Part shown: piece after piece, positions 63,182-63,881 of the stretch
How positions within the stretch are numbered: position 1 is the stretch's first letter
Layout: the number at the start of each line of letters is the position of its first letter
IMG/VR virus record: IMGVR_UViG_3300023714_000001
Strand: one strand, 5' to 3'
Origin: a virus
Lineage: Duplodnaviria > Caudoviricetes
DNA length: 64,000 bases
Program-made: the position numbers and the translations under genes
The notes under the pieces: generated by a model
The model's database searches: none
Told to the model about the DNA's origin: nothing
Seen by the model: the letters and a program-made list of their open reading frames with translations, nothing else

Positions 63182-63881
63182 CATTATGTTCACGGAGTTC
63201 GCTACTCTCCGCAGCTTTTAAAAAGCATCTCTGGCTTTCACCAGAAGTTCAGACTATATCTTCGTTCAAGGATGGCTAGTCCCATCATCACGCCTTCCAT
63301 TTTGATTTAAGGGGATTTCACCCGCCCGCTTGGGCCCTACTCCTGTTGCGCCGTGGCGCCATGGGATAGTCGTTGAACCTTTTACTTCAGTATTTTTTTA
63401 ACCATACATGCACCATCCGACGACCTTAGATTGGGATTCTATTTCCGGTGTTACTGGAACAACATCTCCAGTTTCAATCATGTCGCTTATAGATGGTGGT
63501 TGTATATTACATTCGTGACATATTCGAATATGGTCTTCGCCTTGTTCAGAAATAAGGATTTTTGTCTTTTTCTTATTGATCTTTGCATGTAAAACTGTCC
63601 ATCTTTTATGGTCATACATAACAATGTCGTCTTGTTCAAGTTTTGCTTCCATTTTCGCACCTCCTGTTTTTTATTATACTGAAGTAACTTGGCTGCGTGG
63701 TTGCCCATACTTATCTCTTGCCTTTTTACCGTCCCCGGCTAATTACTCCGGCCGTCATGTCTGTCACCAGCATGATTTGGTAGCTAAGAGCTCTTAGGGA
63801 TTAGAACCTCTGCCAAGAGGCCATTTTTTCGTTCCCGCAGTTAAAAAGATTTTAGAACGGCATGGGTTATGCTGCCTGTCT
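63182..63881 (-). ncRNA. Group I intron in gyrB (700 nt, IA-like) with a small ORF in the P6a loop
   Basis: P1 AGAACGGT/GCCGTTCT, P10 ACCCAT/ATGGGT. Elements AACTGCGGGAA, CACGCAGCCAAG, GTTCAACGACTA and AAGATATAGTCTG; terminal G. Confidence 0.9.
63398..63652 (-). CDS. Intron-borne 84-aa protein of unknown function
   Basis: AGGAGG RBS; flanked by the TACTTCAGTAT/ATACTGAAGTA stem. Confidence 0.65.
   Translation of the reverse strand: MEAKLEQDDIVMYDHKRWTVLHAKINKKKTKILISEQGEDHIRICHECNIQPPSISDMIETGDVVPVTPEIESQSKVVGWCMYG

What the first reader, a model, noticed from the sequence alone, without database searches (positions are those of the whole stretch)
63182..63881. Group I intron carrying a small non-nuclease ORF in the usual endonuclease slot
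Seen: an 84-aa ORF with an AGGAGG RBS and a nearby TATAAT fills the loop of an 11-bp P6a stem. It shows no LAGLIDADG, GIY-YIG or HNH motif, and its start and stop fit the loop neatly. The N-terminus (DDIVMYDHKRWTV) hints at an SH3/KOW-like barrel. Inference: intron cargo such as an RNA chaperone, toxin or anti-defence protein rather than a homing enzyme.
Basis: partly seen in the sequence, partly recalled or inferred. Interest (0 to 1): 0.7.

Follow-up and report, generated by a model that had tools for sequence, protein, structure and literature searches.

The report
Gyrase intron carrying orphan small gene
A self-splicing group I intron in a jumbo phage's gyrase B gene carries a conserved 84-residue protein with no known relatives in the loop where sister phages carry an HNH homing endonuclease, so this intron transports something other than its usual mobility enzyme.

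Summary
On the minus strand, 63881..63182 is a 700-nt group IA intron. It splits a phage gyrB gene inside the ATP-lid motif (GGKNG|MGSSVVNALS). A textbook guide sequence pairs with both exons. Natural intron-less alleles read exactly as the predicted spliced product. A perfect 12-bp P6a stem encloses a 282-nt loop, almost filled by an 84-aa ORF (63652..63398) with an AGGAGG ribosome-binding site.

The ORF is a real gene. A second allele (65% identical, same length, same slot) gives dN/dS 0.32. It matches nothing in Pfam, PHROGs, NCBIfam, PADLOC, PDB or 1.8 billion representative proteins. Structure models were low-confidence.

New here: related phages carry the same ribozyme at the same site, with a ~220-aa HNH-AP2 homing endonuclease in that loop. 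The swap breakpoints lie inside P6a. The small ORF therefore replaced the ancestral endonuclease.

A weak local similarity to that HNH appears in one pair only. Profile comparisons do not support it.

The protein is acidic, which argues against an RNA-chaperone role. Its function remains unknown. Most likely it is a passenger gene, and the intron spreads by recombination or by hitchhiking with the LAGLIDADG intron 51 nt upstream. Earlier scan notes report another non-endonuclease intron cargo in this genome.

The parts
63182..63881 (-). Group IA intron (intron B) of the phage gyrB gene, 700 nt. The 5' splice site follows U63882 and the 3' terminal G is 63182.
   Evidence: Intron-less alleles P0040/L020 read ...GGKNG-MGSSVVNALS... 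exactly across the predicted junction.
63856..63867 (-). Internal guide sequence ACCCAU-GCCGUU. GCCGUU pairs with the exon 1 end AACGGU (P1, G.U at the splice site). ACCCAU pairs with the exon 2 start AUGGGU (P10).
   Evidence: Read directly from the sequence. The block is conserved in L006, L009 and L016.
63693..63840 (-). P4 (CUGCGGG / CCACGCAG) enclosing an extended P5 domain.
   Evidence: RNAfold of the domain. Compensatory changes versus L016/L019: 9 of 31 predicted pairs changed on both sides. The helix naming is my inference.
63676..63687 (-). P6a 5' arm (UUACUUCAGUAU). Only the first 6 nt (UUACUU) are shared with the HNH-bearing sister introns.
63388..63681 (-). Cargo segment, which differs completely from the sister intron. 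It includes the outer part of P6a, the RBS and the ORF. GC is 36.5% (ORF) against about 49% in the ribozyme.
   Evidence: Alignment A3; composition.
63660..63665 (-). Shine-Dalgarno AGGAGG, 7 nt upstream of the ATG. It is conserved in the second allele.
63398..63652 (-). ORF84: 84 aa, 9.7 kDa, pI 5.5, an orphan protein. The end coordinate includes the stop codon.
63382..63393 (-). P6a 3' arm (AUACUGAAGUAA).
63366..63381 (-). P6 3' side, J6/7 and the P7 5' strand (AAGG-UUCAAC-GACUAU). This is the core block shared with the SPbeta bnrdF intron and other phage IA introns.
63304..63365 (-). P7.1 and P7.2 hairpins, the IA hallmark. P7.1 is replaced by a different, longer hairpin in L006 and L009.
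63252..63303 (-). P3 3' strand (AAAAUGGA), P8 hairpin, J8/7 and the P7 3' strand (..GAAGAUAUAGUC).
   Evidence: P7 GACUAU/AUAGUC is 6 bp. The P8 hairpin sequence differs in every relative aligned. The P3 pairing is my inference.
63183..63246 (-). P9, P9.1 and P9.2 hairpins and the 3' tail ending in the terminal G (63182).
63882..63932 (-). 51-nt micro-exon (17 codons, KFSGDNGYKEDTGGKNG) between introns A and B.
63933..64000 (-). 3' end of the upstream intron A. In relatives (L009) it carries a 408-aa LAGLIDADG endonuclease. It is cut off by the window end.
61613..63181 (-). gyrB exon 2 (522 aa: GyrB, Toprim and GyrB_C domains), followed by gyrA at 59084..61579.

Best explanation
This is a self-splicing subgroup-IA group I intron in the gyrase B gene of an uncultured jumbo phage. 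Its ancestral cargo was an HNH-AP2 homing endonuclease in the P6a loop. In this lineage that cargo has been replaced by an unrelated, AT-rich, 84-codon gene (ORF84). ORF84 is translated from its own Shine-Dalgarno site and is kept by purifying selection, but it is not a nuclease. It is a passenger gene, a small acidic and probably protein-binding accessory protein of unknown target, that uses the splicing-neutral loop as a safe harbour. Lacking its own endonuclease, the intron persists by vertical inheritance. It spreads among co-infecting relatives by ordinary recombination in the conserved ribozyme arms and flanking exons, and probably by co-conversion with the LAGLIDADG-bearing intron A only 51 nt upstream. 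Shown: the intron identity and boundaries, that ORF84 is a real gene, the cargo swap, and the absence of known nuclease signatures. Inferred: translation, the non-nuclease nature, the passenger role and the hitchhiking route.
For: Intron identity. P1/P10 guide sequence and terminal G. Core block shared with the SPbeta bnrdF intron and with an Rfam-positive (86.6 bits) relative. Compensatory changes in the P5 extension, and P8/P9 hairpins whose sequences differ between relatives. The spliced peptide is colinear with the GyrB/ParE G-loop. Natural intron-less alleles P0040, P0042 and P0045 give exactly the predicted junction.

ORF84 is a real gene. Two alleles of identical length sit in the same slot. 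They differ at 53 of 255 nt, split 16/11/26 by codon position. dN/dS is 0.32 and Fisher p is 3.5e-4. The AGGAGG is conserved. Allele 1 is identical on at least 5 further contigs from different samples.

Cargo swap. In L009 and L012 the ribozyme is 96% identical in the 5' half and 91% in the 3' half, where most of the difference is the swapped P7.1 hairpin. Those introns hold an HNH_3/AP2 ORF, and the breakpoints are after UUACUU and before AAGUAA. The same HNH family fills this slot in more distant gyrB introns (L015-L019) and diverges in step with the exons: 65% vs 63% and 42% vs 38% amino-acid identity. HNH is therefore ancestral.

Not a known nuclease. No hit in Pfam, PHROGs, NCBIfam, PADLOC or PDB sequences. 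No true relative among 1.84 billion representatives or in IMG/VR, GTDB genomes, INPHARED or the sister phage's genome.

Other properties. Acidic pI of 4.8-5.5 and cargo GC of 36.5%. Intron A with a LAGLIDADG enzyme lies 51 nt upstream.
Against: No positive evidence for any biochemical function. The structure models are weak (pLDDT 50 and 59.5).

Intron B with ORF84 is present or absent among gyrB alleles that differ by only about 2.5-3.8% (L006 and window versus L020/L021). The two ORF84 alleles are much older than that (dS 0.58 vs 0.14, Fisher p 2e-5). This implies the ORF84 intron moves, which a private endonuclease would explain most simply.

L007 carries intron B without intron A, so hitchhiking with A cannot be the only route.

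The micro-exon between A and B differs at 7 of 51 sites between the window and L009 although both introns are near-identical. This does not look like one long co-conversion tract.

Allele 2 shows a local similarity to the L009 HNH (Smith-Waterman 57, 0 of 2000 shuffles).
Confidence: 0.5

Rival explanations
1. ORF84 is a derived relic of a homing endonuclease. It would be a piece of the region just upstream of the HNH catalytic core, now without nuclease activity. It is either on its way to decay or kept for a secondary role such as site binding or autoregulation.
For: The slot's ancestral occupant is an HNH-AP2 enzyme. Allele 2 residues 2-43 align to L009 HNH residues 45-86: BLASTP E 0.002 and Smith-Waterman 57 against a shuffled mean of 28.4, sd 4.8. 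It also scores 51 against P0008. Truncated intron ORFs are a known outcome, for example the T4 nrdB intron ORF versus full-length I-TevIII (my own knowledge).
Against: The window allele scores only 36 (p 0.095). Profile comparisons are not significant: hhalign E 0.74 against 12 HNHs and 0.069 against the 5 closest. The HNH HMM gives about 0 bits in any frame of the loop. Nucleotide identity in the aligned stretch is 45-48%. The RBS region and the outer P6a differ completely from the sister intron, which argues for replacement rather than in-place decay. dN/dS of 0.32 over a dS of 0.58 argues against a decaying relic.
Confidence: 0.2
2. ORF84 is a new, very small homing nuclease or nickase, probably acting as an oligomer, that drives the mobility of this intron.
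For: It occupies the endonuclease slot. Intron B with ORF84 is polymorphic among nearly identical gyrB alleles, and two old ORF84 alleles sit in young exon backgrounds, so the element moves. Conserved acidic and His residues (D9, D14, H15, E36, E39, D40) could bind metal. The second model places a beta-hairpin directly before a helix, an arrangement that resembles a beta-beta-alpha-metal core.
Against: 84 aa is about half the size of the smallest known homing endonucleases (my own knowledge). No conserved His lies at the end of the first hairpin strand, because H22 is R in allele 2. The protein has an acidic pI. No nuclease family or fold match was found. Mobility can be explained by phage recombination or by intron A's LAGLIDADG enzyme.
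Confidence: 0.15
3. ORF84 is an intron-specific splicing helper (maturase or RNA chaperone), as the first reader suggested among other options.
For: It is encoded inside the RNA it would act on. Some fungal group I introns encode maturases (my own knowledge).
Against: The protein is acidic, not basic. Sister introns with almost the same ribozyme do without it. Phage IA introns such as SPbeta bnrdF self-splice without protein (my own knowledge). Known maturases derive from LAGLIDADG enzymes, and ORF84 shows no such similarity.
Confidence: 0.05
4. The ORF is not expressed or has no function, and the open frame is incidental.
For: No expression data exist, only two alleles are known, and the protein is an orphan.
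Against: The frame is intact over 21% nucleotide divergence with no indel. There is a third-position excess of changes. dN/dS is 0.32 with p 3.5e-4. The strong RBS is conserved.
Confidence: 0.07

Closest known systems
Sister gyrB intron with an HNH-AP2 homing endonuclease (L009 = IMG/VR UViG_3300023714_000002, L012; more distant copies L015-L019)
   Same: Same gene, same insertion site, and the same ribozyme (96% identical in the 5' half, 91% in the 3' half). The ORF sits in the same P6a loop with its own RBS.
   Different: The cargo there is a ~220-aa HNH_3/AP2 endonuclease. Here it is an unrelated 84-aa orphan, and the outer P6a stem and the RBS region differ.
Bacillus phage SPbeta bnrdF group IA intron with yosQ (HNH), and the T4 td intron with I-TevI in P6a
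   Same: A phage subgroup-IA intron in a DNA-metabolism gene. It shares the J6/7-P7-P7.1/P7.2-P8-J8/7 core, and the ORF loops out just upstream of that core. The T4 td architecture is from my own knowledge.
   Different: Those ORFs are recognised homing endonucleases. ORF84 has no similarity to yosQ.
T4 nrdB intron with a truncated I-TevIII ORF (my own knowledge)
   Same: A small ORF in a phage group I intron at the place where relatives have a full-length HNH-type enzyme.
   Different: The T4 ORF is a clear deletion derivative of I-TevIII. ORF84 is not demonstrably derived from the HNH and is under purifying selection.
Non-endonuclease cargo in group I introns: rps3 in the fungal mitochondrial LSU rRNA intron (my own knowledge), and the terminase intron with two small genes noted earlier in this same phage genome (e1-5822538, unchecked here)
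   Same: An intron loop used as a carrier for a gene that is not a homing endonuclease.
   Different: rps3 has a known housekeeping function and sits in an organelle. ORF84 is an orphan in a phage, with no free-standing copies found.
Collaborative homing of endonuclease-less introns (cyanophage S-PM2 psbA intron with neighbouring F-CphI; my own knowledge)
   Same: An intron without its own nuclease lies next to a nuclease gene. Here that is intron A's LAGLIDADG enzyme, 51 nt away.
   Different: It is untested here. L007 carries intron B without intron A.

Membership tests
Group I intron (subgroup IA) | P1 with a G.U pair at the 5' splice site, formed with an internal guide sequence; P10 with the 3' exon; terminal G | tested here: met
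   AACGGU/GCCGUU (U63882 pairs with G), ACCCAU/AUGGGU, and the last intron base G63182. The block is conserved in relatives.
Group I intron (subgroup IA) | Conserved catalytic core (P3-P8, P4-P6, P7 with J8/7) recognised by a covariance model | tested here: inconclusive
   Rfam RF00028 gives 26.7 bits against a gathering score of 50 (E 1.6e-4 in the 1.1-kb search). The ORF splits the core. The experimentally known SPbeta bnrdF intron scores 37-42 bits. L013, which shares the same 22-nt J6/7-P7 block, scores 86.6 bits. P7 GACUAU/AUAGUC and J8/7 AAGAUAUAGUC are present.
Group I intron (subgroup IA) | P7.1/P7.2 insertion between P7 and P3' | tested here: met
   Two hairpins at 63365-63304. P7.1 is replaced by a different hairpin in L006 and L009, so structure is kept while sequence changes.
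Group I intron (subgroup IA) | Helices supported by compensatory changes | tested here: met
   9 of 31 RNAalifold pairs changed on both sides in the P5 extension. P8 and P9 hairpins differ in sequence in every relative aligned. P3 and P6 were not tested for covariation.
Group I intron (subgroup IA) | Removal restores an intact host gene; splicing occurs | tested here: met
   The junction is colinear with the GyrB/ParE G-loop and identical to intron-less alleles P0040 and P0045. Actual splicing cannot be tested with these tools.
HNH (beta-beta-alpha-metal) homing endonuclease | DH...N...N/H motif detected by HNH profiles | tested here: not met
   No HNH Pfam hit at E <= 1. The HMM of the slot's own HNH family scores about 0 bits. 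hhalign E is 0.74 and 0.069. YDH at residues 13-15 is not followed by the N/N pattern, and H22 is not conserved.
LAGLIDADG / GIY-YIG / His-Cys box / PD-(D/E)XK / EDxHD endonucleases | Family motif or profile match | tested here: not met
   No match in Pfam, NCBIfam or PHROGs. No motif was seen by eye in the two-allele alignment.
   AF2 models have pLDDT 50 and 59.5. They predict 2-3 strands followed by helices. The best structural matches are at Z 2.7, with chromo-like domains at Z 2.0-2.4, which is noise level.
Known anti-defence or defence proteins | Profile match in PADLOC, or a named family | tested here: inconclusive
   No PADLOC hit. PADLOC covers defence proteins rather than anti-defence proteins, so an anti-defence role is not excluded.

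The most novel reading that the evidence does not exclude
ORF84 represents a new class of intron cargo. It is either a previously unknown, minimal homing nuclease/nickase, or a rapidly evolving accessory protein that phage group I introns shuttle between genomes in place of endonucleases. This would make introns gene-delivery vehicles in jumbo phages. Earlier notes from this scan suggest that a second intron of the same genome also carries non-endonuclease genes.
Probability: 0.3. Interest if true: 0.75.

Novelty: new variant of a known kind. Interest (0 to 1): 0.5.

Why it matters
Group I intron ORFs in phages are treated almost by definition as homing endonucleases or their wrecks. Here the ribozyme scaffold and insertion site are held constant. 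One lineage carries an HNH enzyme and another carries a selected orphan protein, and intron-less alleles are available as natural targets.

That makes a clean test system for three questions:
- Can introns carry and spread other genes?
- How does an endonuclease-less intron stay mobile, for example by hitchhiking with a neighbouring LAGLIDADG intron?
- Is there an unrecognised mini-nuclease fold?

The system also bears on intron-mediated competition between co-infecting jumbo phages (Birkholz et al. 2024, PMC11620839) and on the very high intron load reported for gut jumbo phages (PMC12880540).

Tried and rejected
- **Family searches.** The Rfam gathering search of the whole window found nothing. 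Pfam, PHROGs, NCBIfam and PADLOC gave nothing for ORF84. The only hit of note, phrog_5259 (E 0.003), is not reproduced by allele 2, so I treat it as chance.
- **Exhaustive HMMER search.** Besides the query itself, it returned two long repeat proteins (P0003, P0004). These are translations of tandem satellite repeats with summed weak hits and are not relatives.
- **Other sequence searches.** The ESM Atlas gave only scores below 0.9. The PDB sequence search found nothing. tblastn against 50,697 phage records found nothing. Degenerate-pattern scans of IMG/VR and GTDB genomes found nothing. The sister phage genome has no paralogue.
- **Structure.** The AF2 models were low-confidence. Foldseek/PDB and VIA-align wide gave only noise, with best Z 2.7.
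- **Comparison with endonucleases.** BLASTP against yosQ found nothing. The ORF84-versus-HNH hint was followed through shuffling, HMM and profile-profile tests and was not confirmed.
- **Recent transfer idea, dropped.** I first read the near-identical ribozymes in phages whose exons have dS 1.7 as recent horizontal transfer. I dropped this as unnecessary, because across L009/L016 the ribozyme also diverges far more slowly than the exons, so strong constraint can explain it.
- **Intron-less alleles in IMG/VR.** A degenerate junction pattern found none. They were then found through the protein search.
- **Complex prediction.** None was run, because no binding claim is made.

Full report
**What is at the coordinates**

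All relevant features are on the minus strand.
- A GyrA-like gene lies at 59084..61579. It is preceded by a 522-aa reading frame (61613..63181) with GyrB, Toprim and GyrB_C domains but no GHKL ATPase domain.
- Upstream of that frame lie 700 nt (63881..63182). Then comes a 51-nt stretch encoding KFSGDNGYKEDTGGKNG (63932..63882). Then comes the 3' end of another intervening sequence that runs off the window (63933..64000).
- Joining 63882 to 63181 gives ...GGKNG-MGSSVVNALSE.... This is colinear with the ATP-lid G-loop (GGLHGVGASVVNALSE) of solved GyrB/ParE structures.
- The last protein search found natural uninterrupted alleles: P0040 (643 aa, 93% identical), P0042 and P0045. They read exactly this sequence across the junction. 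The DNA of L020 reads ...AAGAACGGC|ATGGGTAGT....

**It is a group I intron of subgroup IA**

- The intron contains a contiguous guide sequence ACCCAU-GCCGUU (63867..63856). Its 3' half pairs with the last six exon-1 bases AACGGU (P1), with the canonical G.U at the splice site. Its 5' half pairs with the first six exon-2 bases AUGGGU (P10). The intron ends in G.
- P7 is GACUAU/AUAGUC, with the typical J8/7 AAGAUAUAGUC. Two extra hairpins (P7.1, P7.2) lie between P7 and P3', as in IA introns.
- Rfam's single group I model gives only 26.7 bits (E 1.6e-4 locally; nothing at gathering). This is expected for an ORF-split core. The SPbeta bnrdF intron scores only 37-42 bits. L013, which carries the identical 22-nt J6/7-P7 block, scores 86.6 bits.
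- The 3' core is alignable to SPbeta bnrdF and to Vibrio and Pseudomonas phage introns. In that alignment the P8 and P9 hairpins differ in sequence in every relative.
- The more distant gyrB copies L016 and L019 show compensatory changes in the P5 extension, with 9 of 31 predicted pairs changed on both sides.
- P3 and P6 are assigned by analogy and were not tested.

**The stem and the ORF**

- A perfect 12-bp inverted repeat (63687-63676 / 63393-63382) closes a 282-nt loop.
- The loop holds AGGAGG (63665-63660), a 7-nt spacer, and an 84-codon ORF (63652..63398). Only 4 nt separate the stop codon from the 3' arm.
- TATAAT at 63678-63673 has no -35 partner and reads TATAGT in the second allele. 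I give it little weight.

**ORF84 is a real gene**

- Among 5.8 billion clustered proteins it has one relative. P0002 is 84 aa and 65% identical. It lies in the same loop of the same intron on L006 and L007.
- The two alleles differ at 53 of 255 nt with no indel. The changes fall 16/11/26 by codon position. dN is 0.19, dS is 0.58 and dN/dS is 0.32. Fisher p is 3.5e-4.
- Allele 1 is identical on at least five further contigs from different samples.

**ORF84 is an orphan**

- There was no credible hit in Pfam, PHROGs, NCBIfam, PADLOC or PDB sequences.
- An exhaustive HMMER pass over 1.84 billion representatives returned only the query itself and two satellite-repeat artefacts.
- There was no relative in INPHARED, IMG/VR, GTDB genomes or the 207-kb sister phage record.
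- AlphaFold2 with the two-sequence alignment gave pLDDT 50 and 59.5. In the better model, residues 31-70 reach 70-85. It shows a beta-hairpin at 18-35 and helices at 36-47 and 55-61.
- Fold searches returned only noise.
- The protein is hydrophilic and acidic, with pI 5.5 and 4.8.

**The key comparison**

- A related jumbo-phage contig (L009; gyrB exon 2 is 89% identical in protein and 80% in DNA) has the same two introns at the same sites.
- Its intron B ribozyme is 96% identical in the 5' half and 91% in the 3' half. Most of the 3' difference is a swapped P7.1 hairpin.
- Similarity stops after UUACUU of P6a and resumes at AAGUAA. Between those points lies a ~220-aa HNH_3 endonuclease with AP2-like domains and its own RBS.
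- Homologues of this HNH fill the same loop in more distant gyrB introns (L015-L019). P0007 alone is on at least 24 contigs.
- The HNH diverges in step with the gyrB exons: 65% vs 63% and 42% vs 38% amino-acid identity.
- The HNH is therefore the long-standing cargo, and ORF84 is a replacement in one sub-lineage.
- The cargo is also compositionally distinct, at 36.5% GC against about 49% for the ribozyme.

**Is ORF84 a fragment of that HNH?**

- Allele 2 shows a local similarity to L009 HNH residues 45-86. BLASTP E is 0.002 and the Smith-Waterman score is 57, reached by 0 of 2000 shuffles.
- The window allele scores 36 (p 0.095).
- Profile-profile comparisons give E 0.74 and 0.069.
- The family HMM gives about 0 bits in any frame.
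- Nucleotide identity in the aligned stretch is 45-48%.
- I treat this as an unconfirmed hint.

**Population picture**

- Window and L006 exons differ by 2.7% over the first 900 nt, with dS 0.14. The ORF84 alleles have dS 0.58 (Fisher p 2e-5).
- L006's 3' ribozyme half matches the HNH-bearing L009 rather than the window.
- Intron-less alleles (L020, L021) are as close to L006 (22-24 differences per 900 nt) as the window is.
- Cargo, ribozyme halves and exons are therefore reshuffled by recombination. The ORF84 intron is gained or lost on a short time scale.
- Intron-less alleles carry GGC at site B (L020, L021) and GGA at site A (L007, L020, L021). Every intron-bearing allele has GGT at the corresponding site. 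The U needed for P1 thus travels with the intron.
- Intron A, 51 nt upstream, encodes a 408-aa LAGLIDADG enzyme in L009. This is an obvious source of co-conversion. However, L007 has B without A. The micro-exon also differs at 7 of 51 sites between the window and L009. Hitchhiking therefore cannot be the whole story.

**Interpretation**

- The best reading (confidence 0.5) is a self-splicing IA intron whose ancestral HNH was replaced by a selected, non-nuclease passenger gene. The intron then spreads by recombination and by hitchhiking.
- The rivals are a domesticated or decaying HNH relic (0.2), a new minimal homing nuclease (0.15), a maturase (0.05) and a non-functional ORF (0.07).
- The acidic charge, and the fact that sister introns do without ORF84, argue against an RNA chaperone.
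- Nothing supports or excludes a toxin or an anti-defence role.

**Context and novelty**

- The window looks like a jumbo phage. It encodes RecA-like, UvrD, SNF2 and AAA proteins and many genes with no family. ORF84's own record lists a longest contig of 326,679 bp.
- Jumbo gut phages with about 18 group I introns per genome have been described (PMC12880540).
- Earlier notes of this scan report another intron in this same genome, in the terminase gene, with two non-endonuclease genes (e1-5822538). I could not check this because no whole genome is held.
- The intron type, the slot and the host-gene class are classical. The non-endonuclease, selected, swappable cargo is the unusual part. I therefore rate this as a new variant of a known kind.

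Noticed in passing
window 63933-64000 (-), with L009:1290-2860: A second intron (A) ends at G63933, 51 nt upstream of intron B. In L009 it starts after ...GGCGGT and carries a 408-aa LAGLIDADG endonuclease with N-terminal HTH repeats. L007, L020 and L021 lack it and read GGA at the site.
   Followed up: partly
window 47614-47963 (-): The UvrD-like helicase (45787..47580) is split inside Walker A (GPGAG|KT) by a ~350-nt ORF-less intervening sequence. It has U before the 5' cut and G at its 3' end. Rfam finds no family there even at E 10.
   Followed up: partly
L006:2350-3582 and L021:3070-4300: In relatives, gyrB carries a third insertion after ...LFADAD (the Toprim DxD motif), with a 277-aa LAGLIDADG ORF. 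The window's gene is uninterrupted there. Exon identity between the window and L006 drops from about 97% to about 65% next to this site.
   Followed up: partly
L001-L005 and the window end: Five independent contigs, and the window itself, all end 170-565 nt upstream of ORF84, inside or near intron A. This fits assembly breaks caused by intron presence/absence variation in the populations.
   Followed up: no
window 45876-45973 (-): A sub-threshold Rfam match (45.3 bits against 65.2) to n00280, a 'Clostridioides difficile sRNA included into helicase gene', lies inside the UvrD-like gene. It is probably just conserved helicase coding sequence, and may hint at a Firmicutes-type host.
   Followed up: no
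window 30898-34059 (-): In a 1053-aa helicase, the DEAD/ResIII motif (residues 300-360) and Helicase_C (815-925) are about 450 residues apart. An in-frame insertion such as an intein or an endonuclease domain is possible.
   Followed up: no
L011, L013, L014: The exact 22-nt block AAGTAAAAGGTTCAACGACTAT recurs in unrelated phage introns in other genes. Their loops hold a 277-aa Cys-rich ORF with no family assigned here (L011) and a GIY-YIG-like ORF (L013). The block is a handy probe for this intron family.
   Followed up: partly
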